DNA of 64,000 nucleotides from NCBI GenBank assembly GCA_051872635.1, contig JBJEEA010000005.1, forward strand, positions 77-64,076. The letters run 5' to 3'. The DNA comes from Bacilli bacterium. Lineage in GTDB: Bacteria > Bacillota_I > Bacilli_A > RF39 > UBA660. The position numbers and the translations under genes are program-made. Position 1 is the first letter of the stretch, and each line of letters begins with the position of its first letter. Below are positions 6,075-19,760 of this stretch, piece by piece. Under the pieces are notes generated by a model, which worked only from the letters and a program-made list of their open reading frames with translations, did no database searches and was not told the DNA's origin.

Positions 6075-7874
6075 ATGAAAAAAGTAAATCAATATAAATA
6101 TATTTTAATTTTATTTATTTCACTTTTCATATTAATTCCTCAAATAAAAGCTGAAACAATAACTACAACGTATAATAATTATTATTTCTTTCTAGAACCA
6201 TATAAAGTATGTTTTGGAAGCGGTGACGATTGTGATACCATTGTAAATGGGACCACTGCAAATTTAAATGGGAGCCAAAATGAAACTGGCTTTATTAGAT
6301 TAATGTTAACTGCATTTGGAGGTAGTTATGAAAGAATAAATTTACTTGACAATAATCCAAATTCAGAGTGGAGCTTTGAAGATTTTTATATAAAACTAAA
6401 AGAAATTGAAGGTACAAATAAGCAAAACTATAGTTTTTCAGGATTATCATGTTCAACAAAATATATCGTAGAAAATAAAAGTGAAACAGAAGTAAATAGT
6501 TACTTTAGTCATGGCTGTTATAGAAGTGTTGGAGAAAATGATTGGAAAAATCAAATTGAAAATTGGAGTTATTCAAATTCAAATATATTAGCATGTGCTA
6601 GTGTAAATATCGATGTTAATGAAGCAGAAAGCAAATTTGAATATAAAAATTTTGATAATTCAAACGCCTATCTTTATAGCAAAATAGTAAGAAATCCAAC
6701 TACAGTAAATAATATTCAGAATGCTGAATTCAATAATAATATAAATTCTAGCAATTGTGAAGGGAAAATATACCCTATTAAAAGTGAAGACGGAAAGTAT
6801 AGAATATTTTCACCAGTATTATATAAATACACTTATACAACCACTTCTGAAGTATGTAAACCTAACTTAACAAAGCCAAATACTGGAAAATGTAATTCTA
6901 GTGAAAACACACTATCTAGTACTTGTGAAAAGGAAACAATAGAAACAAGTAATTCAAGAGCAGATGTCAAAATTGATCAGAATGGTACAGTATCTAATAT
7001 TCTAACACCAGATAGTGTATATCAAGGTGGTGGATTTAAATTTGGTTTTGTCTACTATAATGAAATAAGCTGGGATTTCGCTGGAGATATATATACAACG
7101 CTTGGTAGTACAGATGCTGCAAAAGAAGAAATAACAGCAGCAATGAAGGAAAAAATACAAAATATTGAAGCCTTTAAAGAAAGTATAATATTAGATAATA
7201 TAACCTTTGGAAATGAAACCATAGATAGTAGCCTTATTCAAAAAAGCTGCCAAAGGAGTGGTGAATTTAATCCAGGAGAAACCGTCACTACAATATGTAC
7301 TTTCTATTTACCAAATTCCGTAGTAGAACCTTATACAGGAAAGATAACTTACAGTACATCAATAGGAACAAACTATGGTATAAATAATAAATATTATACT
7401 CCTTTAACCTATGAAGGAAAATATAATCTAAAAGCTACATTAAAAAACTTAAATGTCTTAATAAATGATGAAAACTGGGTTGGGAATTGGAGCCTAACAT
7501 TTGATGGAAGTAAAGACAGTAGTTGCCAAATAGATGTAGTCAAACGTCTTTATGATAAAGTAGATGATAAATCCTATTCATTTGCCTTTATTTATAGGCC
7601 GATAGATTTAAATGACCCATTTCCAAATAGGAATGCAGGAGTAAATTGGTATGTTTGGTACAACCAAACTAGCAATAAAGAAAGACTAAAAGAAAGCTAT
7701 TCAAATTTACAATATCAAGTTAAATTAGATAATAAAAAAACGTATGCTATTAAAAATTATAATAGTAAGAATGATTACTTAAATTGGGACAGTATAGACG
7801 AAAGTGAAGAAAGTTCATTTATTGATGAATATTTCGATATTTATCGAAAGAACATTGAAGGTGATAATCCATGA
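6075..7874 (+). CDS. Secreted Cys-rich 599-aa protein (candidate adhesin or pilus-associated protein)
   Basis: RBS AGGAGG. Signal peptide ending IKAE. About a dozen Cys spread through the sequence. Stop overlaps the next start (ATGA). Confidence 0.6.
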   Translation: MKKVNQYKYILILFISLFILIPQIKAETITTTYNNYYFFLEPYKVCFGSGDDCDTIVNGTTANLNGSQNETGFIRLMLTAFGGSYERINLLDNNPNSEWSFEDFYIKLKEIEGTNKQNYSFSGLSCSTKYIVENKSETEVNSYFSHGCYRSVGENDWKNQIENWSYSNSNILACASVNIDVNEAESKFEYKNFDNSNAYLYSKIVRNPTTVNNIQNAEFNNNINSSNCEGKIYPIKSEDGKYRIFSPVLYKYTYTTTSEVCKPNLTKPNTGKCNSSENTLSSTCEKETIETSNSRADVKIDQNGTVSNILTPDSVYQGGGFKFGFVYYNEISWDFAGDIYTTLGSTDAAKEEITAAMKEKIQNIEAFKESIILDNITFGNETIDSSLIQKSCQRSGEFNPGETVTTICTFYLPNSVVEPYTGKITYSTSIGTNYGINNKYYTPLTYEGKYNLKATLKNLNVLINDENWVGNWSLTFDGSKDSSCQIDVVKRLYDKVDDKSYSFAFIYRPIDLNDPFPNRNAGVNWYVWYNQTSNKERLKESYSNLQYQVKLDNKKTYAIKNYNSKNDYLNWDSIDESEESSFIDEYFDIYRKNIEGDNP

Positions 7875-8803
7875 AATGGTCATTTGCCTCAGTAGGTTTA
7901 ATCGTCTTTGGATTAATAGGTGTAACAATTATCATGTTGTTTGAAGAACTTACAACAACTAATGAAAATGATTACTATTTATTAAAAGAAGTAACTGAAG
8001 CTGCTATGATTGATTCTGTTGATATAAGTTACTACCGTGAAACAGGAGAACTTAAAATAGTTAGAGAAAAATTTGTTGAAAATTTCACAAGAAGATTTGC
8101 TGAATCAACACTTTTAACAGGAAGTGGTTATACTATTAGTTTCTTTGATATTATTGAAACACCACCCAAAGTATCCGTTACTATAAATACAGGGATAGGT
8201 GAATATACAATTTATGAAGATACAAGTAGCTATAATGTCAATAATCGTCTTGATGCTATCTTAGAGTATATAGGTGAAAATACTTATGAGTCCTCTAATA
8301 GTATCAGAGATCCATATACAGAAAAAACCTATAAGAAGACATATTATAATTTAGTAAGAGTTAAAGACAATAGGGCTACTGTTACTGAACCTGTAAATAT
8401 TCCAGAAAAATTAAATCAAGGACATATTAAAAATGTCAAGATTAGGTCTATTTTAGGTGCTACTGTTGTTGAAGAAGAAAAAGATTTAATGCTTGGTATG
8501 CTTCAAAGAGAAATTGATTGGGCTAAAAGTACTGAAGATGATAATCGCACAGATTTTAATCCAGCATCAGCCAGTACAAGTATTAAAAATTATGCTTCGG
8601 AAATTGAGGTTAACATCTCATCTCCAGAGTGGTATAATTGTAGTGACAACTATAAAAGTAAAGAATGGATGAAAGGTACAGAAGTAGATTGTGGAAAATA
8701 TGATTATTTCATTCATTGGACCGGAGATTTAAATAGTAGTAAAAGTTTTATAGCAGTTAAATATGAAGTAACATGGTCATATGAAGAATATGAATATAAA
8801 TAA
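7871..8803 (+). CDS. N-terminally anchored 310-aa protein, possibly a pseudopilin-like or assembly component
   Basis: Translationally coupled (ATGA). Single N-terminal hydrophobic helix SFASVGLIVFGLIGVTIIMLF followed by E-E. No family recognised. Confidence 0.5.
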   Translation: MKWSFASVGLIVFGLIGVTIIMLFEELTTTNENDYYLLKEVTEAAMIDSVDISYYRETGELKIVREKFVENFTRRFAESTLLTGSGYTISFFDIIETPPKVSVTINTGIGEYTIYEDTSSYNVNNRLDAILEYIGENTYESSNSIRDPYTEKTYKKTYYNLVRVKDNRATVTEPVNIPEKLNQGHIKNVKIRSILGATVVEEEKDLMLGMLQREIDWAKSTEDDNRTDFNPASASTSIKNYASEIEVNISSPEWYNCSDNYKSKEWMKGTEVDCGKYDYFIHWTGDLNSSKSFIAVKYEVTWSYEEYEYK

Positions 8804-8816
8804 AAAGGAGGAAAAT

Positions 8817-9665
8817 ATGAATAATTTAAAAGCTTCGATGAAAAAGTTCTTTGGTAACAAAAATACTGTTACCATATTGGGGGTAATATTATGTTTAGTA
8901 ATATTATATATTGGTTATAATTATCGTATCAACAAAGAAGTTGAATTAGTACAAATACCATATGCTAAAGAGACAATTCAGCCAAGAACATATATAACAA
9001 AAGACATGATTGGTACAATGGAAGTGCCTAAAGCGTTCTTAGAGGGAAATTACTATACGAGTGTAAACAGTATTGTTGGTAAGTATTCTAATTATAATAC
9101 TGTTATAGCTAAAGGAAGTATTTTCTATACTGATTTAGTAGTATCAGAGGCAGATCTTCCTGATTCAGCTTTTCAAGATGTACCCGAAGGATATACAGTA
9201 ATTAACTATCCAGTAAATATATCTAGTACTTATGCTAATTCAATGGCTCCAGGTAGCTATATAAATATTTATTATAAGTCACTTAATGATGCTGGTGAAG
9301 TAATGTTTGGCAAATTTATAAGCAATGTCAAAGTATTAGATGTCAAGGATTCTTCAGGAAGACATGTCTTTGAAAATAGTGAAGAGTCTAGAACTCCTGC
9401 TTATATGTTATTTGCTGTCCCAGAAGAGACGCACTTACTTTTAAGAAAAGCATTGTACTTAGATAAATATGATGTTGAATTATTATTAATACCAAATACA
9501 GCAACTTTAAGTGAAAAAGATAAAGTAACCGTAAGCAGTACCCAAATTGAAGAATTTATAAATTCTAAAACCGTATTTGTATCAGTAGATGATTTACCTA
9601 ACATAGAAGATCAAGTAACTGAAGAAGAAAATAATACAAATGAAAATACAAATACCAATCAGTAA
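8817..9665 (+). CDS. CpaB/RcpC-like Flp pilus assembly protein (SAF-domain type)
   Basis: Start at ATG after AAAGGAGG. N-terminal TM, then a SAF-like stretch (ITKDMIGTMEVPKAFLEGNYYTS...IVGKY..TVIAKGSIFYTDLV). Sits immediately upstream of the Tad ATPase. Confidence 0.55.
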   Translation: MNNLKASMKKFFGNKNTVTILGVILCLVILYIGYNYRINKEVELVQIPYAKETIQPRTYITKDMIGTMEVPKAFLEGNYYTSVNSIVGKYSNYNTVIAKGSIFYTDLVVSEADLPDSAFQDVPEGYTVINYPVNISSTYANSMAPGSYINIYYKSLNDAGEVMFGKFISNVKVLDVKDSSGRHVFENSEESRTPAYMLFAVPEETHLLLRKALYLDKYDVELLLIPNTATLSEKDKVTVSSTQIEEFINSKTVFVSVDDLPNIEDQVTEEENNTNENTNTNQ

Positions 9666-9695: not shown

Positions 9696-11048
9696 ATGGA
9701 AGCCGAATTTACTCAGGTCGATTTTGGCCCTCTAAAAGCCTTTTTAGATAATGATGATGTCACCGATATATCATATAGCAATGGTGGACAAGTCTGGTTA
9801 AAGACATTGTCTCAAGGCGTATACAGAGTAGAAAATACCGGTATTGATAATGCCCTAATGGAAAAAATAGCTTTTCAGTGTGCCAATTCAATGGGAAAAT
9901 CTTTCAATATGGCTAATCCCTTCCTAGATGCCGAATCAGCAGAACTTCGTATGAATTTTGTTCATGACTCTATTGCTAAAAATGGAATAGCAGTCCTTAT
10001 AAGAAAAACACCGGCTAAAATAAGATTACAAAAAGATAAAATAATTGCCGAAGATTATATTAGATTAAATATTCATGACTTTCTCTTAAAATGTGTTGAA
10101 GGACACTGTAATATTATTGTCAGTGGAGAAACTGGTTCAGGTAAAACAGAGTTCATAAAATATTTAGCAGCTCATACCAAAGAAAATGAAAAACTAATAA
10201 CCATTGAAGACACACTAGAATTACACCTTGATAAAATATTTCCTCATCGTGATATCGTTGCTATGAAAACCAATAACATTGCTTCGTATTCTGATGTTTT
10301 GGTAACTTGTATGCGACAAAATCCTAGATGGATATTACTTTCCGAAGTAAGAAGTGCCGAAGCCGTAATGGCTGTTCGAAATTCTATTTCATCAGGTCAT
10401 AATATTTTATCAACAATACACGCTGATAAAGCTGAATCAATTCCAAACAGAATGTATAGCCTACTTGAAACTAATCAAGATATAGGTCAGTTTCTAACTA
10501 CTATCCATAGATATGTTCAACTAGGAGTTCATATTAAAGCTTACTATAGTCAAAAATATAAAAGATTCCATAGAGAAGTAGCTGAAGTTGTGGAATTCTA
10601 CGTAACAGAAGATAATAAAGCCGAGTACAAAATATTATATAAGAAAACACCAGATGGTAAAGAAACAGTAGCTAATCCTTCTAAATACTTACTTAGTTAT
10701 CTAGAAAGTCAAGGCGTGATAATGCCAAAAGATATTTTAGTAAAAGAAGAATTTACTGATGCTAGTAGCATATCTTTAGAAGAAAGTAAAATAGATGAAA
10801 ATTCTTTTGTTATAGATAACAGTACTATAACTCAAAATATTCCAAATAACTATAGTACAAATAATACCATGAATAATAATATTCCAAATAATTATGCTTC
10901 AAGTAATATTGAGGAGAATCAAGCTCCAATTAATGTAGGAGCAAATATGTCTGTAAATGGTCTAAATAGCAACAATATTCCAAATCCATATGCTAGTGCA
11001 GTAATTCCAAATGCTGTTAATATTACTAGTATAAATAATAATGTCTAA
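9696..11048 (+). CDS. cpaF: CpaF/TadA-type secretion ATPase (VirB11/PulE superfamily) with an Asn-rich C-terminal extension
   Basis: Walker A SGETGSGKT, ITIEDTLEL, RQNPRWILLSEVR, His box LSTIHA. Followed by two T2SS-F-like polytopic proteins. Confidence 0.85.
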   Translation: MEAEFTQVDFGPLKAFLDNDDVTDISYSNGGQVWLKTLSQGVYRVENTGIDNALMEKIAFQCANSMGKSFNMANPFLDAESAELRMNFVHDSIAKNGIAVLIRKTPAKIRLQKDKIIAEDYIRLNIHDFLLKCVEGHCNIIVSGETGSGKTEFIKYLAAHTKENEKLITIEDTLELHLDKIFPHRDIVAMKTNNIASYSDVLVTCMRQNPRWILLSEVRSAEAVMAVRNSISSGHNILSTIHADKAESIPNRMYSLLETNQDIGQFLTTIHRYVQLGVHIKAYYSQKYKRFHREVAEVVEFYVTEDNKAEYKILYKKTPDGKETVANPSKYLLSYLESQGVIMPKDILVKEEFTDASSISLEESKIDENSFVIDNSTITQNIPNNYSTNNTMNNNIPNNYASSNIEENQAPINVGANMSVNGLNSNNIPNPYASAVIPNAVNITSINNNV

Positions 11049-11057
11049 ATAAGGTAG

Positions 11058-11960
11058 GTGATAAAATTGGAAATACTTATAATAGGTCTAATAATAATAT
11101 TTATTGTTTCATATAGAACTAAAAGAGGAGAGTCTATATATAAATTTATCTCTACTGAAGCAATAAATACCTATAAAAAAATAGAGCCTTACTCTTTTAA
11201 AGTAATGCGTGAAAAAGTAAAAGAATTAGGCCTTGAATATACTACAAGACAATACTTATTTCAAATAATTGCTTTTGCTGGGTTAGCCGGTGTTATAAGT
11301 TATTTATACTTTTACAATTTATTTATATCTGCTATATACATAATAGTAGCAGTATCATTTATTCCATATATAACCTACCTAAGATGTAAAAGACAGTATA
11401 GTGAATATATCTTCGAACAAGTTCAAGTATACTGTACTAATACCATTATGGAGTTTGCTACTACTCAAGCTTTTGTCAAATCATTAGAGGGAGTAGCAGA
11501 GTCAGGAGTACTAGAAGAACCACTTCTATCAGATGTTAAGACAATGATAGCCTTATCTTATGAAAAAGGCGATGTCTACGACTCTATTAAGTACATGGAT
11601 ACCAAATATCCTTATTATATGGTAAAAAATATGCACCAATTATTTTTACAAGTAACAAAGGAAGGTGCCAAAGATACTAGTGAGACATTTGAAAATATGC
11701 TATCAGATATAGATATTCTAGTAGAAGGTGTATATAGAGATAGAACAGATAGAGCAACCTTCCATAAACAGTTTTTAACTTTTGGTATAGCATTATATGG
11801 AATGGTAGCCTTAATTCAACTACTGATAGGTAAAGAAACTTATATATCTATGATTGATAATATCTTTATTAGAATAATAGTTCATGCTATCGTTATTATA
11901 AATAGTTGGTTTCTCCTTTCTGGAGAAAAATATTACAACGAGAATGTAGGTGCTGAATAA
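11058..11960 (+). CDS. TadB-like platform protein (T2SS-F-like topology)
   Basis: 300 aa. N-terminal TM, TM pair at ~aa 65-105, ~130-aa cytoplasmic domain, C-terminal TMs. Position right after the ATPase. Start could be TTG at 11067. Confidence 0.55.
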   Translation: MIKLEILIIGLIIIFIVSYRTKRGESIYKFISTEAINTYKKIEPYSFKVMREKVKELGLEYTTRQYLFQIIAFAGLAGVISYLYFYNLFISAIYIIVAVSFIPYITYLRCKRQYSEYIFEQVQVYCTNTIMEFATTQAFVKSLEGVAESGVLEEPLLSDVKTMIALSYEKGDVYDSIKYMDTKYPYYMVKNMHQLFLQVTKEGAKDTSETFENMLSDIDILVEGVYRDRTDRATFHKQFLTFGIALYGMVALIQLLIGKETYISMIDNIFIRIIVHAIVIINSWFLLSGEKYYNENVGAE

Positions 11961-12754
11961 TGATTGAAATGTTAATAGTAGCTATCATAGTAATATACAT
12001 TTTTGTTGTAAATGGAAAAATAGATAAAGATAATATTTTTACTAATAACAACAAATTATGTAATTTATTAAAAGAAAAAGATTACGATTTTCTTCTAATA
12101 GCACGATATGGTGATAAAGTTTATAATCCTAATGAAGTATTCATGAAAAGAATAAAAAATGGTATACTAGTAGCAGCAGCGCTTATCTTCTTATTTCTAT
12201 CACAAATGAGCTATATAACTGTAATAGCAGCATTAGTAGTAGGATATTTTGTGTCAAAAATTCAATATATAAGTTTAAAATTATGGTATAAAAGACATCT
12301 TAATTATATTGAATCATTATTACCATATTATTTAAAAAGTTTAGAAGTACTAGTTCATCATTATACAGTACCAGTAGCATTAGCTAAAAGTATCGACGAT
12401 GCTCCTGAAGTATTCAAACCAGGACTAAAAAGATTAATAGACAAAATAGAAGCAGGTGACTCATCAATTGATCCATATATGGATTTTGCTAATGAATATC
12501 CAGTTAGAGATTCAATGCGTATGATGAGATTATTATATAGATTAGGACTTGGAGAACAAGAAAAAAAGCACCAACAGTTAGTTTCCTTCTCTAAGTCAGT
12601 ATCTTCTCTTCAAGCAAAAGCCAGAGAACAAAAATATCAGGCCAGACTTGATACTATGGAGAGAAAGACCATGATTATGATGTGTGTAACCGGATTTGGT
12701 TCACTCGGATTACTATTGATTTCAATATTTATGTTAATGGGAACAGCAATGTAA
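11960..12754 (+). CDS. TadC-like platform protein (T2SS-F-like topology)
   Basis: Start overlaps the previous stop (TAATG). 264 aa with the same TM / cytoplasmic domain / TM layout as the preceding gene. Confidence 0.55.
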   Translation: MIEMLIVAIIVIYIFVVNGKIDKDNIFTNNNKLCNLLKEKDYDFLLIARYGDKVYNPNEVFMKRIKNGILVAAALIFLFLSQMSYITVIAALVVGYFVSKIQYISLKLWYKRHLNYIESLLPYYLKSLEVLVHHYTVPVALAKSIDDAPEVFKPGLKRLIDKIEAGDSSIDPYMDFANEYPVRDSMRMMRLLYRLGLGEQEKKHQQLVSFSKSVSSLQAKAREQKYQARLDTMERKTMIMMCVTGFGSLGLLLISIFMLMGTAM

Positions 12755-12813: not shown

Positions 12814-13035
12814 ATGAAAGAAGCAACAGGTGAAGTATCAATGACAGTAATTGTAATCCTTGCAATAGCAGTAATTGGTGGAATAGTAGTAGCACTTGGA
12901 CCGACTCTGAAAGACACAATAATGACAAGATGGGGAAATTCAGATGCAGCAGCATGTAGCTCAGGTGGTGGTACATGGAACGAAACTGATTCTAAAACGG
13001 GCGAAGGATATTGTTCAATGCCAAAAAATAATTAA
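12814..13035 (+). CDS. Flp-like (type IVc) prepilin candidate, 73 aa
   Basis: RBS AAGGTGAG. Short charged leader MKEATG, then a ~25-aa hydrophobic helix VSMTVIVILAIAVIGGIVVALG. Small C-terminal part with 2 Cys. Deviates from the classical G/xxxxEY motif. Confidence 0.45.
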   Translation: MKEATGEVSMTVIVILAIAVIGGIVVALGPTLKDTIMTRWGNSDAAACSSGGGTWNETDSKTGEGYCSMPKNN

Positions 13036-13056
13036 TTAGAGAGTAGGTGATTAATA

Positions 13057-13497
13057 ATGCGAGAAGCCTTTGGTGGAACATTTATGATAAAATTAATGTT
13101 AATCTTTATAGCCATATATATAGCCTTCATAGCGGTAGCTCTAAATTATGCTAAGGCATTTAGAGTAAAGAATGGTATTATTGATATCATTGAGCAAAAT
13201 GAAGGAATAGATGACTATACTGATACTAGTGGTACATTAGGTGAAATAAATGAATATCTAAATAAAGTAAGTTATTATGTATCATTAGATAAAATAGATT
13301 CTTTAAATACAGATGGCAATTATTGTTCTGCAAGAGGCTATTGTATTAAAAGGATAGATGCAACATCGAAAGTAGATAATATTAATAGTTCATATTATAA
13401 AGTAACAACTTATATAAACATTAATTTTCCATTCTTTGGATTAAATTTTAGAATTCCAATAACTGGAGAAACACGTAAAATAGAAAGGATAAGTTAA
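13057..13497 (+). CDS. TadE-like minor (pseudo)pilin candidate
   Basis: Leader MREAFG resembles that of the preceding gene. Followed by the hydrophobic helix FMIKLMLIFIAIYIAFIAVAL and a ~100-aa globular part. Confidence 0.4.
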   Translation: MREAFGGTFMIKLMLIFIAIYIAFIAVALNYAKAFRVKNGIIDIIEQNEGIDDYTDTSGTLGEINEYLNKVSYYVSLDKIDSLNTDGNYCSARGYCIKRIDATSKVDNINSSYYKVTTYININFPFFGLNFRIPITGETRKIERIS

Positions 13498-13498: not shown

Positions 13499-14521
13499 AT
13501 GGATACTGTAATAGCAAACAAATATAATGACATATTAAGCTCTTTAGATATTGAAGTATCAAAGAAACTAGAAGGAGAGTACGATGTTGAAGAGATAATT
13601 TCAACTTTTGGTAATTACTTTTTCAATAAAATGTTTTTAGATATTACCGCTATTAAAGATTATAAAGATTTTACCAATCTTAAAAAATTATCTATGAGTA
13701 TAAATATGGATAAAGTAATATTACTTTTAGATAAAGATGATGCTATTAGTGATTCTAATGTCTTTTTATCAAAGCTTGTCGATATGGGAATATATAATTT
13801 TACTAAAGATGAAAATAGTCTTATGTATTTATATAATAATCCTAATATTTATCGTGATGTTGCTTATCTTCAAAATAGTACTCCTAGTGAAGAAGAAACT
13901 CCTAATGTAGCACCATTAGAAGTATCTAATAAGAAAATTATTGGAATAAAAAATATAACTGACTCTGCCGGATCCACTACTTTTACTTATTTATTAAAAA
14001 AAGTATTAAGCGATTACTATAGTGTCATGGCTCTTGAAATAGATAAAAGAGAGTTAACTTATTTCAAAGATAAAGACTGTCTTACAATTAAAGAAGATAA
14101 TATTGATGATACTATAAATAAATATAATGGTGTAGATATATTTTTAATAGATTTAGGTAATTCAAAAAAAGAACATTTATGTGATGATGTTATATATTTA
14201 ATTGAACCTAGTACTATTAAATTAAATAAATTAGTCTTAGTAAATCCAGGTATATTTAAAGAATTAGAAGGTAAAAAAGTTATTTTAAATAAGAGTTTAT
14301 TAAGTGAAAATGATATAGCTAACTTTGAAGTAGAATCAGGTATAAGAATATTTTATAATATGCCTCCTATTAACGATAAAGAAGATAAGGATATAAATGA
14401 TAAAATACTTCCTCTATTAGCAAAACTTGGCTATGTAAAAGAGTCTCCAGAAGAAGAAATACCTACCAAAAAATCAATATTTGACTTTTTAAAAAAAATA
14501 AACAATGAAAAAGGCAAATAA
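13499..14521 (+). CDS. TadZ/CpaE-like protein (N-terminal receiver-like region plus degenerate MinD/ParA-like domain)
   Basis: C-terminal half IIGIKNITDSAGSTTFTYLL...ALEIDK...IFLIDLGNS looks like a MinD/ParA fold with a deviant P-loop lacking Lys, as reported for TadZ. Assigned from position and layout only. Confidence 0.35.
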   Translation: MDTVIANKYNDILSSLDIEVSKKLEGEYDVEEIISTFGNYFFNKMFLDITAIKDYKDFTNLKKLSMSINMDKVILLLDKDDAISDSNVFLSKLVDMGIYNFTKDENSLMYLYNNPNIYRDVAYLQNSTPSEEETPNVAPLEVSNKKIIGIKNITDSAGSTTFTYLLKKVLSDYYSVMALEIDKRELTYFKDKDCLTIKEDNIDDTINKYNGVDIFLIDLGNSKKEHLCDDVIYLIEPSTIKLNKLVLVNPGIFKELEGKKVILNKSLLSENDIANFEVESGIRIFYNMPPINDKEDKDINDKILPLLAKLGYVKESPEEEIPTKKSIFDFLKKINNEKGK

Positions 14522-14583: not shown

Positions 14584-14913
14584 ATGTATTTTTTAGATGG
14601 ATGTCCTGCTGGGTTGGAACCAATTTTAGGAATTGTTAATTATGTTATAAATGCTATTATGATAGGAGTTCCAATATTATTAATAATATTTGGTATGATT
14701 GATATAGGTAAAGCTGTTATTTCAAGTAAAGATGATGAAGTAAAAAAAGCTACTAAAGCATTTGGAAGAAGATTCCTTGCTGCCGTTGGAGTATTCGCAA
14801 TAGTATGGCTTGTAACATTTGTATTTACTACAATAGCATCTGCTACAAATGATGCCGTTAATCCAGATGAAGCAAATTGGCAATCATGTTGGGCACAAAT
14901 AAGAAAATCGTAA
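14584..14913 (+). CDS. VirB2/TrbC-like pilin-type conjugal transfer protein (109 aa, two TM helices)
   Basis: Two hydrophobic helices joined by a charged loop (VPILLIIFGMIDIGKAVISSKDDEVKKATKAFGRRFLAAVGVFAIVW). Same motif recurs at the C-terminus of the 15451 ORF. Confidence 0.5.
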   Translation: MYFLDGCPAGLEPILGIVNYVINAIMIGVPILLIIFGMIDIGKAVISSKDDEVKKATKAFGRRFLAAVGVFAIVWLVTFVFTTIASATNDAVNPDEANWQSCWAQIRKS

Positions 14914-14918
14914 TCTAA

Positions 14919-14953
14919 AAAATTCAGTTAAAAAACATGACTGAATTTTTTTA
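14919..14953 (+). terminator. Rho-independent terminator after the VirB2-like gene
   Basis: AATTCAGT / ACTGAATT stem followed by TTTTTTT. Confidence 0.65.
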
Positions 14954-15350
14954 TAGTAGGATTAGACAAAAATATAAATTAATAAAAAATAATTCTTTTA
15001 TATATTTTGAAGTGTATAAAAGCCAAATCAAAATAGTGGAAGAGTATTTTATTGTGTCTAAGAGGAGTCGGATAAGCATATAGCCTATTAAGTCATGAAA
15101 CAAAAGAAAATTTTTCTATTACAAAATAAACAAAACAATAGTTGAAAAAAATAGTTTGTTAAATACCCCGTTAAATACATTATATAGTAATATAGATATA
15201 TTTTTGAAAGCCTTTTCAAATAAAATAAATAACAAATATAATAGTATTTTAAAATATTTAGAATAAAACAAAAAATTTCTCAAATTATTTTCTAAAATTG
15301 AAGAAAGTAACTTAAGACAAATGAGCAAAACTACCAAAAAAAAATAAAAT

Positions 15351-15392
15351 TGAAAAAGGAATCATTTTTATTCAAAAAATGATTCCTTTTTT
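15351..15392. terminator. Strong hairpin, possibly a bidirectional terminator, with no upstream ORF
   Basis: AAAAGGAATCATTTT / AAAATGATTCCTTTT perfect stem flanked by an A-run and a T-run. Nothing convincing is encoded between 14954 and 15350. Confidence 0.5.
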
Positions 15393-15402
15393 CTTACTAG
15401 TA

Positions 15403-15411
15403 TGTTATAAT
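15403..15411 (+). promoter_or_regulatory. Extended -10 element (TGtTATAAT) upstream of the T4SS module
   Basis: TGTTATAAT read directly, ~40 nt upstream of the ATG at 15451. No good -35. Confidence 0.35.
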
Positions 15412-15450
15412 TTAAATGTGATAGATTAACTTCCAAGGAGTAGATTATAT

Positions 15451-17286
15451 ATGAAAAAAAATAAAAAGCAAATATTATTGACAATTATAGTATTATCAAT
15501 ATCAACAATATTATTTACAAGTAGAGTAGATGCAGTAGTCATGTGGATGCAGTGTGTTCCCAGTCCTGAAGATGAAATGGATTGTGGAGGAGATTGCGAT
15601 GATTATGGATTATATAACACTTTTGCATTGATACATTATGCGAGCGATGGCGTAAGAAATTTGGCATATAATCCAAACAATTTTTATAGTGGCCAATATC
15701 CAGTTTATATTATGGCAGAAAAAACTAATGGTAAACTTGTGGGTAATAGTTGTTGGTATGAAGAATATTTTGATGATATAGAGGAATGTGAAGATGAAAA
15801 AGAAAAAATGGTTCCTATTTCAAAGATGCTTGAAGGTGTTTGCCCAACAGGAGTGAGAAAAAATGATCACTACACTGCTGGTTTTATGAATGCTATTGGA
15901 GCTGGTTGGATATATAAAAAAGTAGTAAAAGATTTTATTGTAGTGTATGGTACTACTCCTGCTTATGAACGCGAAGTTTTAAATGAAAATATTTTTGTTA
16001 TTTATGGTTTTCAAAAAAATAACGAAAAAGCAACTGACTATATAATTGAGGGATATAATTCTTCAGGCGAATATGGTTATGCAACAACATGGGAAGATGA
16101 AGAATCATTTAAGGATAATTTAAATTTGAAAGAAAATGATTCAGATTATGATTTAATAAACGAAGAAGAATATGCTACTAATCATATGACTTGGGCAGGT
16201 ATGACACAAGCACGTAGAGTAGCCAATTTAGGTAGAAATTATTTTAAATTATTGGATACTGAGGACGCTTGGCTGATTAATACACAAGAAGATTCCAAAT
16301 TCGTAAAGAAAGAATATGATGATAATAACAATTTAACAATATATCGCAGTGATGATAGCAATAAGAACTTTTATAGTTGGGTTTCTTCTTGGTATGAAAA
16401 ATATGACGAGGTACTATCTAGCCAAATAAAAATAATAAAAGATTTAAAAGAAAAATCAAAATATGTAAAAGCACTAGAGGTAGCTAAAGAGATAAGTAAT
16501 GCTGTTGATGAAGGAAAAGAATATCGATTTGATGAAGATTATGCTTCTGAAATGGTCCTTGTTATGGAAGAGGCTTATGATTTGTTAGTTCCTATTTTAG
16601 GTGATAATGATCCTATATATGATTCTTATGGAGAAGATTGCAAGGTAACTGGGAAAAAGGTCAATGATCCATCGGCGTCAATACTAACACAGTTTAATTG
16701 TGAAACATTTGGAAAGTCTTCAATAAGTAAACTTCCAAATAAAGTAAATGATGGAATGCTAAATTCAATGATTTCTTCAGCACTAAGTAATGCTGTTAAT
16801 GAGTATAATAATTCTAGTGTTTCAATTGATAAAATACGTAGTACCGCTGAAGAATATGCTAAATATTATGCTATTGCTATTAAATATATTAAAAAATATA
16901 ATTTGGCTACTGGTGATGCAGCAGCGATTATTGATGATCTTACTGACAATTATAATGAAATGACAAGAAGCTTTGGCGTTGAAACAATCGTTAGTTGTGA
17001 TGACTTATTTAGTGATGACCTAAGAAACAAAATAGGTAGTTATCTTAATATAGTTAAAATAGCAGTACCGATAATATTAATTGGTTTTGGAATAATTGAT
17101 TTTACAAAAGCAATTTTTGCCGGAGATGAAGAAAAAATGAAAAAGGCTCAAAAAGATTTTATTATGAGACTAGGAATTGCAATGTTGTTTTTCTTAGTTC
17201 CAACTATAGTAGATCTTTTGCTAAGATTAGCTAATAAGGTTTGGTATTTTATTGAGCCTGGATCTTGTGGTATATTTGATGCATAG
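15451..17286 (+). CDS. Secreted Cys-rich 611-aa protein with a C-terminal VirB2/TrbC-like two-helix domain
   Basis: RBS AAGGAG. Signal peptide ending RVDAV. ~10 Cys. Last ~80 aa (VPIILIGFGIIDFTKAIFAGDEEKMKKAQKDFIMRLGIAMLFFLVP) align with the 109-aa ORF at 14584. Confidence 0.6.
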   Translation: MKKNKKQILLTIIVLSISTILFTSRVDAVVMWMQCVPSPEDEMDCGGDCDDYGLYNTFALIHYASDGVRNLAYNPNNFYSGQYPVYIMAEKTNGKLVGNSCWYEEYFDDIEECEDEKEKMVPISKMLEGVCPTGVRKNDHYTAGFMNAIGAGWIYKKVVKDFIVVYGTTPAYEREVLNENIFVIYGFQKNNEKATDYIIEGYNSSGEYGYATTWEDEESFKDNLNLKENDSDYDLINEEEYATNHMTWAGMTQARRVANLGRNYFKLLDTEDAWLINTQEDSKFVKKEYDDNNNLTIYRSDDSNKNFYSWVSSWYEKYDEVLSSQIKIIKDLKEKSKYVKALEVAKEISNAVDEGKEYRFDEDYASEMVLVMEEAYDLLVPILGDNDPIYDSYGEDCKVTGKKVNDPSASILTQFNCETFGKSSISKLPNKVNDGMLNSMISSALSNAVNEYNNSSVSIDKIRSTAEEYAKYYAIAIKYIKKYNLATGDAAAIIDDLTDNYNEMTRSFGVETIVSCDDLFSDDLRNKIGSYLNIVKIAVPIILIGFGIIDFTKAIFAGDEEKMKKAQKDFIMRLGIAMLFFLVPTIVDLLLRLANKVWYFIEPGSCGIFDA

Positions 17287-17310
17287 AAACTTTAATTAAG
17301 GAGGTATATT

Positions 17311-19410
17311 ATGATTTATTTCTTGTCTTTTTGGTCAGATGTTGGCTTTTCTATAAAACAAGCACTTAGAACTTTTTCTTGTAAAATTGCTTGTGTATTA
17401 TATGATTTTATTGTTGACTTATATAATGTTTTTATGTATACTGCTAGAGCTGAAATATTAAGTAGTAGTTTTGTTCAGCAAATATATAATAAAGTGGGAA
17501 TGCTTTTGGGTATCTTTATGGTTTTTAAATTATCCTTTTCTCTAATACAATCACTAGTTGATCCTAATAAATTTACAGATGAAAAAACTGGCTTTGGTGG
17601 AATTATAAAGAGAAGTGTTATTTCAATAGTACTTTTGGGAATCACGCCTTCACTTTTTCGTATGGCTTTTGATTTTCAAAACTTAATTATTGGTTCGGCA
17701 AATAATACTGATAATATTATTTATAAGATTATTGTTGGCTCAGCACCATATAATGATGCTGCGAGTTTTGGCAACATAATTGCTTCAGAGTTGTATTTTG
17801 GCTTTTATACTGAAAACTCTCCTTATAAATTAGATGAGGGAATCGATATTGAGTATCCTGATGGTGAAGCAAAAATAGTTACTAAAAACTATGCCAATCT
17901 GAAAAGTGAAATAGAAAATGGTGCTTCTTTTAATACCACTATTGATTATCTGTCTGTTACAAATAGTGGGCAGTATGTTATTAATTGGAATGGATTGTTT
18001 GCAATAGCAATGGCTGCTTTCATGATTTACATATTGGTTACATACTGTATACAGGTAGCAACACGTGTAATACAACTAGCTTATTTGCAATTAGTTGCTC
18101 CAGTTCCTATTTTATCATATATTTCAGATCCAGATGGAGCCTTTAAAAATTGGACAAGGCAATGTTTGACTACTTATTTAGATTTATTTATAAGATTAGC
18201 AATAATATACTTTATAATAACAGTTAGTACTCAAATATTACAAGCACTAAAAGATGCAGAAAGCATATTATATCAAAGCACCGGACTTGATCAGTTAAAT
18301 GATGCCGATACAATGTGGTGGGTAGTAATATTTTTAATTATTGGTTTATTAATGTTTGGAAAAAGAGTACCAGATTTATTAAAAGATTTATTCCCTAATA
18401 TGGGTGGTGGTGCCGCTACTATTGGATTTGGAATAAAAAGTCCAAAAAAAACACTTGCAGATATTCCTATAGTAGGAGGTCCTACAAATAAGGCATTAGG
18501 ATATGCAGGAAACCTTGGGAAAAAAGCAGGAAAATTCGCATGGAGCCACACCGGCGGAGCAGCAGGCAAATTTGTTTGGGGCCATACCGGAGGTAAGATT
18601 AAGAATAACTATAACAGATGGAAAGACGATAGAACAGGATATAAAGAAGGATACAAAAAAGATAAAGAATCAGAAGATGCATGGAAAGAATATGGAAATG
18701 ACTTTAATGTTGATCCTTCAGCATCTCCAGAAGAAAAATTGGTTGCATATAAAAAGGCATTTCATAGCAGCCGAGATAAAAATGGTGAATATGCAGCATC
18801 TTATGCACAATTAGAAAGAACTGGTGAGGCTTTGAAAAAATATAGAGGTGACACTAACTCAGCAGAGTATAGAAAACTTCTTGCAGACAAAGAAAAAGCA
18901 CAAAAGAATCATGATGTAAATAGAGAAAAATATAAAGATCTTGCTAGAAGAGAAGATCAACTTAAAAGATATGCTAATAGGCATCCAGAAGTTAAAAAGA
19001 ATACTTCTTCCGCATCAACTACCTCATCATCTTCTTCATCATCACCTTCAGCAACTTCTAATTCTTATCAAAGATCAAATTATAAAGGAACAAATCAACC
19101 AATTAATGAGCAAAACTCTATGTTTGCAAACATGAGTGATGAAGAATGGAAAGCTAGACGTAGTCAAAACGAGCAAGAAATAAGAGAAGAAAACTTAAGA
19201 TTAAGAGAAGCCAATCGAAATGATCCTAATCAATATTTTGATAAAATGGATCAACAGTATGCAGATGAATATTTAAAGAATAATGGTGTATCCGATGATT
19301 TTGATATGCAGTATGAAACCAAAAGAGGCCAAATGGAAGATGCATATAAAAAATTAGGATGGAGTCAAGACAATGATGGAAAATGGACCAAAAATGGCAA
19401 TGGTTCTTAA
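17311..19410 (+). CDS. VirB6/TrbL/TcpH-like polytopic channel protein with a ~325-aa hydrophilic C-terminal extension
   Basis: RBS AAGGAGG. At least 6 predicted TM helices in aa 1-360. Position between pilin-like and VirB3/VirB4 genes. C-terminal half is charged, with a poly-Ser tract. Confidence 0.55.
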   Translation: MIYFLSFWSDVGFSIKQALRTFSCKIACVLYDFIVDLYNVFMYTARAEILSSSFVQQIYNKVGMLLGIFMVFKLSFSLIQSLVDPNKFTDEKTGFGGIIKRSVISIVLLGITPSLFRMAFDFQNLIIGSANNTDNIIYKIIVGSAPYNDAASFGNIIASELYFGFYTENSPYKLDEGIDIEYPDGEAKIVTKNYANLKSEIENGASFNTTIDYLSVTNSGQYVINWNGLFAIAMAAFMIYILVTYCIQVATRVIQLAYLQLVAPVPILSYISDPDGAFKNWTRQCLTTYLDLFIRLAIIYFIITVSTQILQALKDAESILYQSTGLDQLNDADTMWWVVIFLIIGLLMFGKRVPDLLKDLFPNMGGGAATIGFGIKSPKKTLADIPIVGGPTNKALGYAGNLGKKAGKFAWSHTGGAAGKFVWGHTGGKIKNNYNRWKDDRTGYKEGYKKDKESEDAWKEYGNDFNVDPSASPEEKLVAYKKAFHSSRDKNGEYAASYAQLERTGEALKKYRGDTNSAEYRKLLADKEKAQKNHDVNREKYKDLARREDQLKRYANRHPEVKKNTSSASTTSSSSSSSPSATSNSYQRSNYKGTNQPINEQNSMFANMSDEEWKARRSQNEQEIREENLRLREANRNDPNQYFDKMDQQYADEYLKNNGVSDDFDMQYETKRGQMEDAYKKLGWSQDNDGKWTKNGNGS
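18525..18597 (+). repeat. In-frame tandem peptide repeat GKFAWSHTGGAA / GKFVWGHTGGK within the VirB6-like protein
   Basis: Read directly in translation and DNA (aaattcgcatggagccacaccggcgga / aaatttgtttggggccataccggaggt). Confidence 0.8.
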
Positions 19411-19433
19411 TGCTATAAGGAGTGTGATACATA

Positions 19434-19760
19434 GTGAATGGATTTTTAGTACCAGCAAATGCTAAAAGAGGTACTCTTATATTAAATATATTTAGACCAT
19501 TTGATTTAATTATGTTTGGAACAGGAGCACTAGTTACTTTATTATTACTTGTAATTGTTAATTCAAATGATACAGTAATGATATTACTATCCTGTCTTCC
19601 TGTTGCAATAACTGGGTTCCTAGTTGTTCCGGTACCTAACTATCATAATGTTCTATGTGCTATACAAAGTATATTTAAATTTTATTCAGAAAGAAGAAAT
19701 TATATTTGGAAGGGTTGGTGTTTCTATGAAAAATTCGGAAGCGAAGAAGAAAAAAAGTAA
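19434..19760 (+). CDS. VirB3/TcpE/PrgI-like small membrane protein
   Basis: GTG start after AAGGAGTG. 108 aa, two TM helices. Lies immediately upstream of and overlapping VirB4, as in Gram-positive T4SS loci. Confidence 0.45.
   Translation: MNGFLVPANAKRGTLILNIFRPFDLIMFGTGALVTLLLLVIVNSNDTVMILLSCLPVAITGFLVVPVPNYHNVLCAIQSIFKFYSERRNYIWKGWCFYEKFGSEEEKK

What the first reader, a model, noticed from the sequence alone, without database searches (positions are those of the whole stretch)
12814..13497. Two adjacent prepilin-like genes share an M-(K/R)-E-A-x-G leader; the Flp-like one has a Cys-bounded C-terminal loop
Seen in sequence: ORF 12814 begins MKEATG|EVSMTVIVILAIAVIGG and ORF 13057 begins MREAFG|GTFMIKLMLIFIAIYIA. 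Both have a 6-residue charged leader ending in Gly, followed by a ~22-aa hydrophobic helix. This is the layout of class III (prepilin) signal peptides.

They lack the canonical Flp G/xxxxEY motif and the Glu+5 of type IVa pilins. The 73-aa protein ends with C-x18-C (AAACSSGGGTWNETDSKTGEGYCSMP). That loop resembles the disulfide-bonded D-region of type IVa pilins, which Flp pilins normally lack.

Inference: a divergent pilin class with its own processing rule.
Basis: partly seen in the sequence, partly recalled or inferred. Interest (0 to 1): 0.6.

Follow-up and report, generated by a model that had tools for sequence, protein, structure and literature searches.

The report
Mini-pilin pair of a Tad-like/T4SS machine
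Two neighbouring small genes most likely encode the fibre subunits of an undescribed pilus-like machine that is built into a chromosomal DNA/protein-transfer system of uncultured small-genome gut bacteria; whether their invariant six-residue start is cut off is still unproven.

Summary
ORF 12814-13035 (73 aa) starts MKEATG+EVSMT and ORF 13057-13497 (146 aa) starts MREAFG+GTFMI. Each has a ~22-33-residue hydrophobic helix, and the 73-aa protein has Cys48-x18-Cys67. These are the only two ORFs in the 1.25-Mb genome with this leader plus a helix.

Both belong to large families that match no curated profile:
- MK[EA]A[TS]GE..T is invariant in 230 pilin homologues, and synonymous codons vary, so selection acts on the protein.
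- The genes follow a CpaF/VirB11-type ATPase and two polytopic proteins, and lie beside a Gram-positive-type T4SS.
- The whole locus sits at a fixed chromosomal site in about 125 of 151 genomes of one order of gut Bacilli.

- No Flp, TadE, N_methyl or T2SSF profile matches.
- There is no peptidase in the locus. One PilD-type A24 enzyme lies elsewhere, whether or not the module is present.
- The Cys pair occurs in only about a quarter of family clusters.
- The module is homologous to unexplained genes 36-41 of pLS20-type plasmids, whose small proteins have no Gly leader.

Cleavage is therefore inferred, not shown. This scan has flagged the same system several times before on other genomes.

The parts
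12814..13035 (+). 73-aa mini-pilin-like protein (candidate major subunit). It has the leader MKEATG, then EVSMT plus a hydrophobic helix, then a C-terminal Cys48-x18-Cys67 hairpin.
   Evidence: - ORF and RBS.
- Family alignments: A1 and A5.
- 899 clusters at 50% identity match with E<=1e-3.
- AF2 model has pLDDT 74.8, with helix 7-39, helix 43-50 and hairpin 54-68.
- The only Pfam trace is Pilin_N at 17.4 bits against a cut-off of 25.2.
13057..13497 (+). 146-aa pilin-like protein (candidate minor subunit, in the TadE position). It has the leader MREAFG, then GTFMI plus a long helix, then a beta-sheet domain with Cys90-x5-Cys96.
   Evidence: - ORF.
- 353 or more homologues; alignment A2.
- AF2 model has pLDDT 78.5, with helix 3-47, helix 60-71 and five strands.
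- 116 of 120 homologues have exactly two Cys.
- No significant Pfam, PDB or Foldseek match.
9696..11048 (+). CpaF/TadA/VirB11-superfamily secretion ATPase (450 aa)
   Evidence: - Pfam T2SSE, E 2.5e-26.
- NCBIfam VirB11 117 bits, TadA family 105 bits, TrbB 97 bits; all are below the equivalog cut-offs.
- The best PDB match is Caulobacter CpaF at 1.8e-19, against VirB11 at 2e-15.
- 33-34% identity to the pLS20-family 'putative VirB11'.
11058..11960 (+). 300-aa polytopic membrane protein in the TadB position
   Evidence: - Hydropathy gives TM 1-22, 66-110 and 238-289, with a soluble domain of about 125 aa.
- No T2SSF signal.
- 82-92% identical in most related loci, falling to 56% in the most distant.
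- Present in 127 of 151 genomes of the order.
- hhalign against pLS20 gene-38 homologues is collinear but not significant: probability 10%, E 0.003.
11960..12754 (+). 264-aa polytopic membrane protein in the TadC position
   Evidence: - Hydropathy.
- No T2SSF signal.
- hhalign against pLS20 gene-39 homologues gives probability 95.3%, E 2.2e-8 over 129 columns.
13499..14521 (+). 340-aa soluble protein in the TadZ position. It has an N-terminal receiver-like part and then IIGIKNITDSAGSTT, which looks like a degenerate P-loop.
   Evidence: - Alignment A6.
- No Pfam, NCBIfam or PDB hit.
- The TadZ-like reading is by eye only.
8781..9665 (+). 294-aa N-terminally anchored protein, weakly CpaB/RcpC-like
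   Evidence: - Pfam RcpC, E 0.014.
- NCBIfam pilus_cpaB, E 0.0014.
- Both are below their cut-offs.
7871..8803 (+). DUF5411 protein (310 aa) with an N-terminal helix
   Evidence: - Pfam DUF5411, E 6.9e-50.
- The protein in the pLS20 gene-36 position also hits DUF5411, at 1.4e-5.
14584..26883 (+). Adjacent Gram-positive-type T4SS. It comprises a T4SS_pilin-like 109-aa protein, a 611-aa exoprotein, TrbL/VirB6, TcpE/PrgI-like, VirB4, an M23+lysozyme hydrolase and VirD4.
   Evidence: - Pfam annotation.
- A VirB4 orthologue at 63-95% identity is present in 142 of 151 genomes of the order.
4810..5298 (-). Membrane-anchored thioredoxin, syntenic with the locus. It is a possible oxidoreductase for the Cys-paired exported proteins.
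   Evidence: - Pfam Thioredoxin, E 2.5e-8.
- It keeps the same position in most related loci.
- Any functional link is inference.

Best explanation
**What the two genes are.**
- They encode the major (73 aa) and a minor (146 aa) subunit of a very divergent type-IV-filament-like (Tad-like) fibre.
- The fibre would be assembled by the ATPase and the two polytopic membrane proteins encoded just upstream.
- This module is the pilus-like arm of a vertically inherited chromosomal Gram-positive-type T4SS in an order of uncultured, small-genome gut Bacilli.

**Proposed mechanism.**
1. Both proteins insert into the membrane through their N-terminal hydrophobic helix.
2. The six-residue leader M-[KR]-[ED]-A-x-G is removed after the invariant Gly. 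The likely enzyme is the genome's single PilD-type A24 peptidase, which is encoded elsewhere next to pilC.
3. The ATPase then extracts the mature subunits, which start with Glu (major) or Gly (minor), and polymerises them.
4. Outside the cell, the small C-terminal hairpin of the major subunit and the beta-domain of the minor subunit are locked by disulfides.

**Shown here.**
- The genes, the conserved leader and protein-level selection on it.
- The helix-plus-small-domain models and the gene neighbourhood.
- Co-inheritance of the module's parts, even Cys counts, and presence of an A24 peptidase.

**Inferred only.** Filament formation, cleavage, which enzyme cleaves, and the disulfides.
For: **Leader.**
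- M1 K2 E3 A4 G6 E7 V8 S9 M10 T11 are invariant in alignment A1.
- MK[EA]A[TS]GE..T holds in 230 homologues.
- Codons 3-7 vary synonymously across 40 loci (GCA/GCT/GCG, ACA/ACT/ACG, four Gly codons) while the residues do not change.
- The 146-aa family keeps M[KR][ED][AGS]xG[GSA] in 118 of 120 members.
- The leader plus helix is unique to these two ORFs in the genome.

**Shape.**
- In the major subunit, residues 1-6 have no helix or strand, 7-39 form a helix, and a small hairpin follows.
- The minor subunit has a 45-residue N-terminal helix plus a five-stranded sheet.

**Context.**
- The ATPase's best solved relative is CpaF.
- The order ATPase, polytopic, polytopic, small pilin, larger pilin-like gene is kept in L003-L038.
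- From established knowledge, this is also the order of the Bifidobacterium breve tad locus, whose tadV is likewise unlinked.

**Co-inheritance.**
- The minor pilin is found in 125 of 151 genomes and the B-like protein in 127 of 151.
- The two sets of genomes without a match are nearly the same.

**Peptidase.** PF01478 is present in the own genome and in 149 of 151 genomes of the order.

**Exported and oxidised.** Cys counts are even in 225 of 230 pilins and are exactly two in 116 of 120 minor pilins.
Against: - No curated pilin profile matches: Flp_Fap, TadE, N_methyl and DUF4244 give nothing at E<=1. Pilin_N is sub-threshold in only 9 of 43 members.
- The two platform-like proteins have no T2SSF signal by hmmscan, by whole-genome search at E<=10, or by hhalign against a 21-sequence PilC alignment.
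- No solved structure resembles either model significantly.
- The A24 peptidase is PilD-type, sits in a canonical pilC cluster, and has eight or more KG/FTLIE substrates of its own.
- The peptidase is just as present in the roughly 24 genomes without the module. Its presence therefore permits cleavage but does not point to it.
- Glu at +1 and Thr at +5 are unusual for A24 substrates.
- In the homologous pLS20-type module, the positional counterparts (gene 40 at about 120 aa, gene 41 at about 47 aa) have no conserved Gly before the helix.
Confidence: 0.5

Rival explanations
1. The two proteins are uncleaved, single-pass membrane subunits of a T4SS inner-membrane sub-complex. That complex would consist of a VirB11-like ATPase, two polytopic proteins and small bitopic partners. 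The invariant MKEATGE / MREAFGG N-terminus would be a short cytoplasmic docking motif for the ATPase or platform, not a signal for a peptidase. No filament is made.
For: - The ATPase scores as well against VirB11 and TrbB models as against TadA.
- pLS20-family authors call its plasmid homologue 'putative VirB11' and list genes 36 and 38-41 as unknown (PMC8557374).
- The module is homologous to the pLS20-type one: ATPase at 33% identity, C-like protein at hhalign 95%, DUF5411 in both.
- The plasmid small proteins lack a Gly-ended leader.
- No T2SSF domain is detectable.
- There is no dedicated peptidase.
- A leader that is merely discarded rarely needs seven invariant residues.
Against: - Gly at position 6 is absolutely conserved in two otherwise unrelated families, directly before a hydrophobic helix. 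That is the class III signature.
- The extracytoplasmic parts vary fast and carry paired Cys, as exposed fibre surfaces do.
- The size range of 50-75 aa and the major-plus-minor arrangement mirror Flp/TadE.
- Homology between the plasmid small proteins and these two families is not established: hhalign probabilities are 3.6% and 9.5%.
Confidence: 0.27
2. They are true prepilins, but an enzyme other than the A24 peptidase processes them. This could be an unrecognised membrane protease of the locus or a housekeeping one, which would make a genuinely separate processing rule.
For: - The leader (TG/E, FG/G) differs from the genome's own PilD substrates (KG/FTLIE).
- PilD presence is unrelated to module presence.
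- Two module-bearing genomes (G023, G097) show neither PilD nor PilC.
Against: - No locus protein has a peptidase profile or a GxGD-like signature.
- G023 and G097 are 94-95% complete MAGs, and pilC and pilD are adjacent, so one missing contig explains both absences.
- From established knowledge (mutational studies of Pseudomonas PilD), A24 enzymes need little beyond Gly at -1.
Confidence: 0.1
3. It is chance resemblance or a mis-called pair of ORFs.
For: None beyond the general AT-richness of the genome, which makes spurious ORFs common.
Against: - Both have strong RBSs.
- Both have hundreds of homologues with conserved length and motifs.
- Synteny is conserved.
- The AF2 models reach pLDDT 75-79.
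Confidence: 0.01

Closest known systems
Tad/Flp (type IVc) pili of monoderm bacteria, for example the Bifidobacterium breve tadZABC-flp-tadE-tadF locus with unlinked tadV
   Same: - The gene order is ATPase, two single-domain-sized polytopic proteins, a 50-75-aa pilin, then a larger pilin-like protein with the same leader type.
- The prepilin peptidase is encoded elsewhere.
- The ATPase is closest to CpaF among solved structures.
- There is a weak CpaB-like protein and a protein with TadZ-like layout.
   Different: - No Flp_Fap or TadE profile match and no G/xxxxEY. The leader is only 6 residues with net charge 0, and the mature N-terminus would be Glu.
- The platform proteins lack any detectable T2SSF domain.
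- The TadZ-like protein lacks a P-loop.
- The only peptidase is PilD-type, not TadV-type.
- The module is genetically fused to a T4SS.
Conjugation operon of pLS20-family Bacillus plasmids, genes 36-41 (PMC8557374), and the same block in Listeria, Enterococcus (pZB18), Virgibacillus and Peribacillus plasmids
   Same: - Homologous ATPase (33-34% identity, E 1e-37 to 1e-43).
- Homologous C-like polytopic protein (hhalign 95%).
- A DUF5411 protein lies before the ATPase.
- A protein of about 120 aa with an N-terminal helix and a mini-protein of about 47 aa with a central helix lie after the platform.
- The block sits next to VirD4, VirB4, VirB6 and a T4SS_pilin-like gene.
   Different: - It is plasmid-borne and has a relaxase.
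- The small proteins start ML(D/E)xNxxR or MQEGxIME with no Gly-ended leader. Their homology to the two families here is not demonstrated.
- The order of small and large subunit is reversed.
- The plasmids have thioester or isopeptide adhesins in place of the Cys-rich exoproteins.
Type IVa pilins (PilA/ComGC class) with a C-terminal disulfide-bonded D-region
   Same: - A short leader ending in Gly.
- An N-terminal hydrophobic helix.
- A C-terminal Cys pair in some members.
   Different: - No N_methyl motif, no Phe at +1 and no Glu at +5.
- The protein is 3-4 times smaller.
- The Cys pair is absent from most clusters of the family.
- The genome's real type IVa pilins (KG/FTLIE) are encoded elsewhere.
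IncI plasmid R64 thin pilus (a type IVb pilus encoded with a conjugative T4SS)
   Same: A type IV filament system that is encoded with a T4SS and works for it. In R64 it stabilises mating pairs in liquid.
   Different: - It is a diderm system with canonical PilS/PilV pilins, a PilU peptidase and T2SSF platforms.
- It is plasmid-borne.
- There is no sequence relationship to the proteins here.
Chromosomal relaxase-less MPF_FATA-like T4SS of Patescibacteria (bioRxiv 10.1101/2025.01.22.634366)
   Same: A monoderm-type T4SS fixed in the chromosome of small-genome, probably host-dependent bacteria. It has pilin-like gene arrays and no relaxase nearby.
   Different: - The arrays there are VirB2-like pilins.
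- No Tad-like ATPase/platform module or MKEAxG proteins are described there.

Membership tests
Flp/Fap major pilin (Pfam PF04964, Tad pili) | Match to the Flp_Fap profile | tested here: not met
   There is no hit at E<=1 for the window protein or for any of the 43 family members.
Flp/Fap major pilin (Pfam PF04964, Tad pili) | Processing motif G/XXXXEY (Glu5-Tyr6 of the mature pilin) | tested here: not met
   The sequence after Gly6 is E-[VLT]-[SN]-[ML]-T. Position +5 is Thr in all 230 homologues.
Flp/Fap major pilin (Pfam PF04964, Tad pili) | Protein of about 50-80 aa made of one long hydrophobic N-terminal helix with little or no globular domain | tested here: met
   Family median length is 62 aa. 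The AF2 model has helix 7-39 plus a 25-residue tail.
Flp/Fap major pilin (Pfam PF04964, Tad pili) | Cleavage by a TadV/CpaA-type A24 peptidase | not testable with these tools
   No TadV lies in the locus. One PilD-type A24 peptidase is encoded elsewhere. Cleavage needs an experiment.
TadE/TadF pseudopilins (Pfam PF07811 / PF13400) | Match to the TadE or Tad profiles | tested here: not met
   PF07811 is absent. PF13400 appears in 3 of 32 members at E>=0.23 only.
TadE/TadF pseudopilins (Pfam PF07811 / PF13400) | Same leader type as the major pilin, encoded next to it, with a larger C-terminal domain | tested here: met
   The two proteins share M[KR][ED]AxG. The genes are adjacent. The model shows a helix plus a five-stranded sheet.
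Type IVa pilin (N_methyl, PF07963) | G/F(M)-T-L-x-E N-terminus | tested here: not met
   No Pfam hit. The genome's KG/FTLIE pilins are elsewhere.
Archaeal type IV pilin N-terminus (Pfam PF07790) | Match to the Pilin_N profile above the gathering score | tested here: inconclusive
   The window protein scores 17.4 bits against a cut-off of 25.2, E 0.0086. Nine of 43 members hit, with best E 0.0033.
Tad (type IVc) assembly machinery | TadA/CpaF-clade ATPase | tested here: inconclusive
   The best PDB match is CpaF (1.8e-19) against VirB11 (2e-15). NCBIfam gives VirB11 117 bits and TadA family 105 bits, both far below their cut-offs. No phylogeny was made.
Tad (type IVc) assembly machinery | TadB and TadC platform proteins carrying a T2SSF domain (PF00482) | tested here: not met
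   hmmscan gives no hit at E<=1. A whole-genome PF00482 search at E<=10 hits only contigs 26, 51, 1 and 44. hhalign against PilC alignments gives probability below 3%. Only position, size and topology agree.
Tad (type IVc) assembly machinery | CpaB/RcpC and TadZ/CpaE accessory proteins | tested here: inconclusive
   CpaB-like hits are sub-threshold, at E 0.0014 and 0.014. The 340-aa protein has no hit anywhere. Its TadZ-like layout is seen by eye only.
pLS20-type conjugation-operon module (genes 36-41) | Homologous ATPase, polytopic proteins and DUF5411 protein in the same order next to T4SS genes | tested here: met
   - ATPase by tblastn: 33-34% identity, E down to 1e-43.
- C-like protein by hhalign: 95.3%.
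- DUF5411 in both.
- Gene order.
- The B-like protein is only collinear, at probability 10%.
pLS20-type conjugation-operon module (genes 36-41) | Homology of the two flagged proteins to plasmid genes 40 and 41 | tested here: inconclusive
   hhalign of A2 against five gene-40 homologues gives probability 3.6%. hhalign of A5 against four gene-41 homologues gives 9.5%. Both alignments are collinear but not significant.

The most novel reading that the evidence does not exclude
Monoderm T4SSs of this type, both the chromosomal one of these gut Bacilli and by homology the pLS20 plasmid family, possess a true extracellular fibre. That fibre would be built not from VirB2 but from 50-75-aa mini-pilins, by a Tad-derived motor with a non-T2SSF platform. 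The MKEATG/E proteins would then define a new class of type IV filament with its own leader rule and a Glu1/Thr5 helix chemistry. It would also give the first 'conjugative pilus' equivalent in Gram-positive bacteria.
Probability: 0.3. Interest if true: 0.85.

Novelty: new variant of a known kind. Interest (0 to 1): 0.55.

Why it matters
Gram-positive T4SSs are generally said to lack a pilus, and pLS20 genes 36-41 are still listed as 'unknown'.

If these proteins are cleaved and polymerised, several things follow:
- They would be the shaft of a fibre that a Tad-like motor adds to a monoderm T4SS.
- They would be a pilin class that current HMMs (Pfam, NCBIfam) do not detect.
- The organisms are abundant, uncultured, 0.6-1.6-Mb gut Bacilli that keep this roughly 21-kb machine almost universally. 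That suggests it is central to how they live, for example through cell contact, DNA exchange or effector exchange.
- The invariant N-terminus gives a simple sequence handle for finding the system, and a directly testable processing question.

If they are not cleaved, they still mark an unrecognised conserved sub-complex of Gram-positive conjugation machines.

Tried and rejected
**Profile and sequence searches that found nothing.**
- Pfam and NCBIfam scans of the two proteins and of all members of A1 and A2 gave no curated family.
- PDB sequence searches with profiles A1, A2, A3, A4 and A6 gave nothing significant.
- Megablast of the locus, and tblastn of the pilin and the B-like protein, against 72,556 plasmids gave no match.

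**Structure search.** Foldseek of both AF2 models against the PDB gave a best E of 0.12 (levivirus coat proteins) and 2.7. I rejected both as noise.

**Remote-homology tests.**
- hhalign of the B-like and C-like proteins against each other and against PilC, first as a single sequence and then as a 21-sequence alignment split into its two repeats, gave probabilities of about 7% or less. I could not show a T2SSF relationship.
- hhalign of the pilin families against pLS20 genes 40 and 41 was not significant.

**Comparative tests.**
- The idea that PilD presence tracks the module was rejected. PilD is in 149 of 151 genomes.
- The idea that the locus is a mobile ICE was rejected. It has the same flanks (QueH and thioredoxin on the left, rhodanese and SufB on the right) across many genera, and no integrase or relaxase in the part scanned.

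**Other.**
- The promoter and terminator scan around the pilin was uninformative in this AT-rich DNA.
- Literature searches found no paper describing these pilins.
Full report
**1. What is there**

The two ORFs exist as described.
- 12814-13035 (+) encodes a 73-aa protein, MKEATGEVSMTVIVILAIAVIGGIVVALGPTLKDTIMTRWGNSDAAACSSGGGTWNETDSKTGEGYCSMPKNN. A GAAGGTGAG ribosome-binding site lies 5 nt upstream.
- 13057-13497 (+) encodes a 146-aa protein that starts MREAFGGTFMIKLMLIFIAIYIAFIAVALNYAKAFRVKN.
- The Cys residues of the first protein are at 48 and 67, giving C-x18-C. The second protein has Cys90 and Cys96.
- Neither protein has Glu at +5 or the Flp motif G/xxxxEY.

I scanned all start codons of all ORFs of 40 aa or more in the 1.25-Mb genome. 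M[KR][ED][AST]xG followed by a hydrophobic stretch occurs only in these two genes. The same genome encodes at least eight ordinary type IVa-like pilins with KG/FTL(I/V)E on other contigs.

**2. Both are members of large, uncurated families**

The 73-aa protein:
- It has 91 homologous 90%-identity clusters by word-seeded search.
- A profile search found 899 clusters at 50% identity with E<=1e-3, of which 282 have E<=1e-10.
- In alignment A1, M1 K2 E3 A4 G6 E7 V8 S9 M10 T11 are invariant.
- Over 230 homologues the rule is MK[EA]A[TS]GE-[VLT]-[SN]-[ML]-T.
- Across 40 loci, codons 3-7 vary synonymously (GCA/GCT/GCG, ACA/ACT/ACG, GGT/GGC/GGA/GGG, GAA/GAG) while the residues stay fixed. The constraint is therefore on the protein, not on the RNA.

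The 146-aa protein:
- It has more than 350 homologous clusters.
- It keeps M[KR][ED][AGS]xG[GSA] in 118 of 120.

No Pfam or NCBIfam model reaches its threshold on either family.
- Flp_Fap, TadE, N_methyl and DUF4244 give nothing.
- The only traces are Pilin_N (17.4 bits against a cut-off of 25.2; 9 of 43 members), one Flp1_like hit, and three PF13400 hits at E>=0.23.

**3. The Cys loop**

The C-terminal Cys pair is real here, but it is present in only some members of the family.
- Among 139 pilin-like proteins in the 150 best 50%-identity clusters, 99 have no Cys, 33 have two and 4 have four.
- The spacing runs from x8 to x18.
- A large sub-family ends in ...FAGENSIGRKWIxNTF... with no Cys at all.
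- What is informative is parity. 225 of 230 pilins have an even Cys count, and 116 of 120 minor-pilin homologues have exactly two. This is what exported, disulfide-bonded domains look like.
- A membrane-anchored thioredoxin (4810-5298, minus strand) is syntenic with the locus. Any functional link is inference.

**4. Structure models**

With the family alignments, AF2 gives the following.
- 73-aa protein: pLDDT 74.8. Residues 1-6 have no helix or strand, 7-39 form a helix, 43-50 a short helix, and 54-59/64-68 a hairpin.
- 146-aa protein: pLDDT 78.5. It has helix 3-47, helix 60-71 and a five-stranded sheet.

Both are 'helix plus small head' shapes, as pilins are. Foldseek against the PDB finds nothing significant, with best E values of 2.7 and 0.12. 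The fold comparison therefore neither supports nor refutes a pilin identity.

**5. Neighbourhood**

Upstream of the two genes lie:
- two exported proteins;
- a DUF5411 protein (E 7e-50);
- a weakly CpaB/RcpC-like protein (sub-threshold);
- a T2SSE-superfamily ATPase;
- two polytopic membrane proteins of 300 and 264 aa.

Downstream lie a 340-aa soluble protein and then a Gram-positive-type T4SS. The T4SS comprises a T4SS_pilin-like gene, TrbL/VirB6, TcpE/PrgI-like, VirB4, an M23+lysozyme hydrolase and VirD4.

The ATPase:
- Its best solved relative is Caulobacter CpaF (1.8e-19), ahead of VirB11 (2e-15) and FlaI.
- NCBIfam scores it about equally against VirB11, TadA-family and TrbB models, all far below their cut-offs.

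The two polytopic proteins:
- They have the size and topology of TadB/TadC: an N-terminal TM, a TM hairpin, a cytoplasmic domain of about 125 aa, and C-terminal TMs.
- I could not detect a T2SSF domain by hmmscan, by a whole-genome PF00482 search at E<=10, or by hhalign against a 21-sequence PilC alignment.

The 340-aa protein has a receiver-like N-terminus and IIGIKNITDSAG(A/S)TT where a P-loop would be. It matches no profile or structure.

'Tad-like' is thus a statement about the ATPase, gene order and topology. It is not a statement of family membership.

**6. Distribution**

- Related loci come from uncultured gut 'Bacilli bacterium', 'Tenericutes' and CAG:302/321/762 assemblies.
- In 151 genomes of the window's order (0.6-1.6 Mb), the 146-aa family is found in 125, covering 71 of 86 genera.
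- The B-like protein is found in 127, and the set of genomes without it is nearly the same.
- Across the class, the pilin profile hits 27 of 34 genomes of this family but only 1 of 265 from 28 other families.
- Gene order and flanks are kept: QueH and thioredoxin on the left, rhodanese and SufB on the right.
- Four loci are rearranged but keep the pilin and B-like gene a few kb away.
- The locus is therefore a fixed, vertically inherited chromosomal feature, not an ICE.
- The VirB4 orthologue (63-95% identical) is in 142 of 151 genomes. These include at least 16 genomes, among them whole genera, that lack the pilus module. The T4SS can evidently persist without the module.

**7. The peptidase question**

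- The genome has exactly one A24 peptidase. It is a 255-aa PilD-type enzyme next to pilC on contig 26.
- In the order it is present in 149 of 151 genomes, nearly always as a single copy. That includes every genome lacking the pilus module.
- PilC is equally universal.
But the presence of PilD is not evidence that it acts on these proteins.
- Two module-bearing MAGs lack both pilC and pilD (G023, G097; 94-95% complete). One missing contig would explain that.
- From established knowledge of PilD specificity, Gly at -1 is the critical residue and +1 is tolerant. TG/E and FG/G are therefore plausible substrates, but untested.
- An unlinked peptidase has a precedent in the Bifidobacterium breve tad locus (established knowledge).

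**8. A link to known plasmids (a lead from earlier notes of this scan, tested here)**

- The ATPase's best plasmid matches are the 'CpaF/VirB11 family' proteins of pLS20-family Bacillus plasmids and of Listeria, Enterococcus, Virgibacillus and Peribacillus plasmids. They share 29-34% identity, with E down to 1e-43.
- In all five plasmids inspected, the block has the same order:
  - an adhesin;
  - a protein of about 125 aa;
  - the ATPase;
  - a polytopic protein of about 270 aa;
  - a polytopic protein of about 245 aa;
  - a protein of about 120 aa with an N-terminal helix;
  - small proteins;
  - a TrbC/VirB2- or T4SS_pilin-like protein;
  - VirD4.
- The protein of about 125 aa hits DUF5411, as does the window's gene 7871-8803.
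- The window's C-like family aligns to the plasmid 245-aa family with hhalign probability 95.3%, E 2e-8.
- The B-like pair is collinear but not significant, at 10%.
- The pLS20-family paper lists gene 37 as 'putative VirB11' and genes 36 and 38-41 as unknown. It states that no pilus components are encoded (PMC8557374).
- The plasmid counterparts of the two flagged genes start MQEGxIME... or MLEGSVMAIGK... (about 120 aa) and ML(D/E)xNxxR... (about 47 aa), with no conserved Gly before the helix.
- Their homology to the families here is not demonstrable, at 3.6% and 9.5%.

This keeps open the reading that such small proteins work uncleaved.

**9. Judgement**

The most likely reading has confidence about 0.5. 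The two genes encode the major and a minor subunit of a Tad-like fibre that belongs to this chromosomal T4SS, and their six-residue leader is removed after Gly6, probably by PilD.

The main rival has confidence about 0.27. It holds that they are uncleaved bitopic subunits of a VirB11-type inner-membrane sub-complex, and that the invariant N-terminus is a cytoplasmic docking motif.

The comparison with the type IVa D-region does not hold for the family as a whole.

**10. Novelty**

- I found no paper describing these proteins.
- A recent preprint describes relaxase-less chromosomal monoderm-type T4SSs with VirB2-like arrays in Patescibacteria (10.1101/2025.01.22.634366). That is a useful parallel, but it has no such module.
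- Within this scan, the same system has been noted and followed up several times on other genomes, with concordant conclusions. For the scan, this window is therefore another instance rather than a first sighting.
- One tool (look-up of sequencing runs) was closed, so no expression data could be examined.

Noticed in passing
window 19624-22073: VirB4 appears as two ORFs: a 221-aa N-terminal part that ends at 20289, and a 594-aa ATPase part that starts at 20289 with a one-base overlap. Related loci show the same two-part arrangement, listed as 'B4N' and 'VirB4'.
   Followed up: partly
order-wide comparison: At least 16 of 151 genomes, including whole genera, keep the VirB4 orthologue at 66-72% identity but have no match to the B-like platform protein or the minor pilin. 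The T4SS seems able to persist without the pilus-like module.
   Followed up: partly
G000 contig 26, 44198-45372 (outside the window): A second pair of T2SSF-domain matches (E 1e-16 and 1e-12) lies about 20 kb from pilC-pilD. The genome therefore has two canonical type IV pilus/competence-type platforms in addition to the module studied here.
   Followed up: no
window 4810-5298 (-) and 3787-4305 (+): A membrane-anchored thioredoxin and a DUF6568 protein lie directly left of the locus. The thioredoxin is syntenic in most related loci, including those whose pilin has no Cys.
   Followed up: partly
L032, L034, L038 and many genomes: The 146-aa gene is tandemly duplicated in many relatives, giving two paralogues with the same MR[ED]AFGG leader. 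Some genomes also have two pilin copies (G020, G021, G031).
   Followed up: partly
G162:C76:8142-8288 (another family of the class): This is the only pilin-profile hit outside the window's family, at E 1.9e-18, and it carries an in-frame TAA. It could be a pseudogene, a transfer or a binning error.
   Followed up: no
L076 13002-13238 (pLS20-family plasmid gene 45 position): The 78-aa two-TM protein passes the Pfam T4SS_pilin threshold (28.8 bits, E 1.3e-6). The pLS20-family paper states that no VirB2 homologue is encoded.
   Followed up: no
window 11058-11960: The B-like polytopic protein is unusually conserved. It is 82-92% identical in loci where the adjacent minor pilin is only 50-70% identical.
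   Followed up: no
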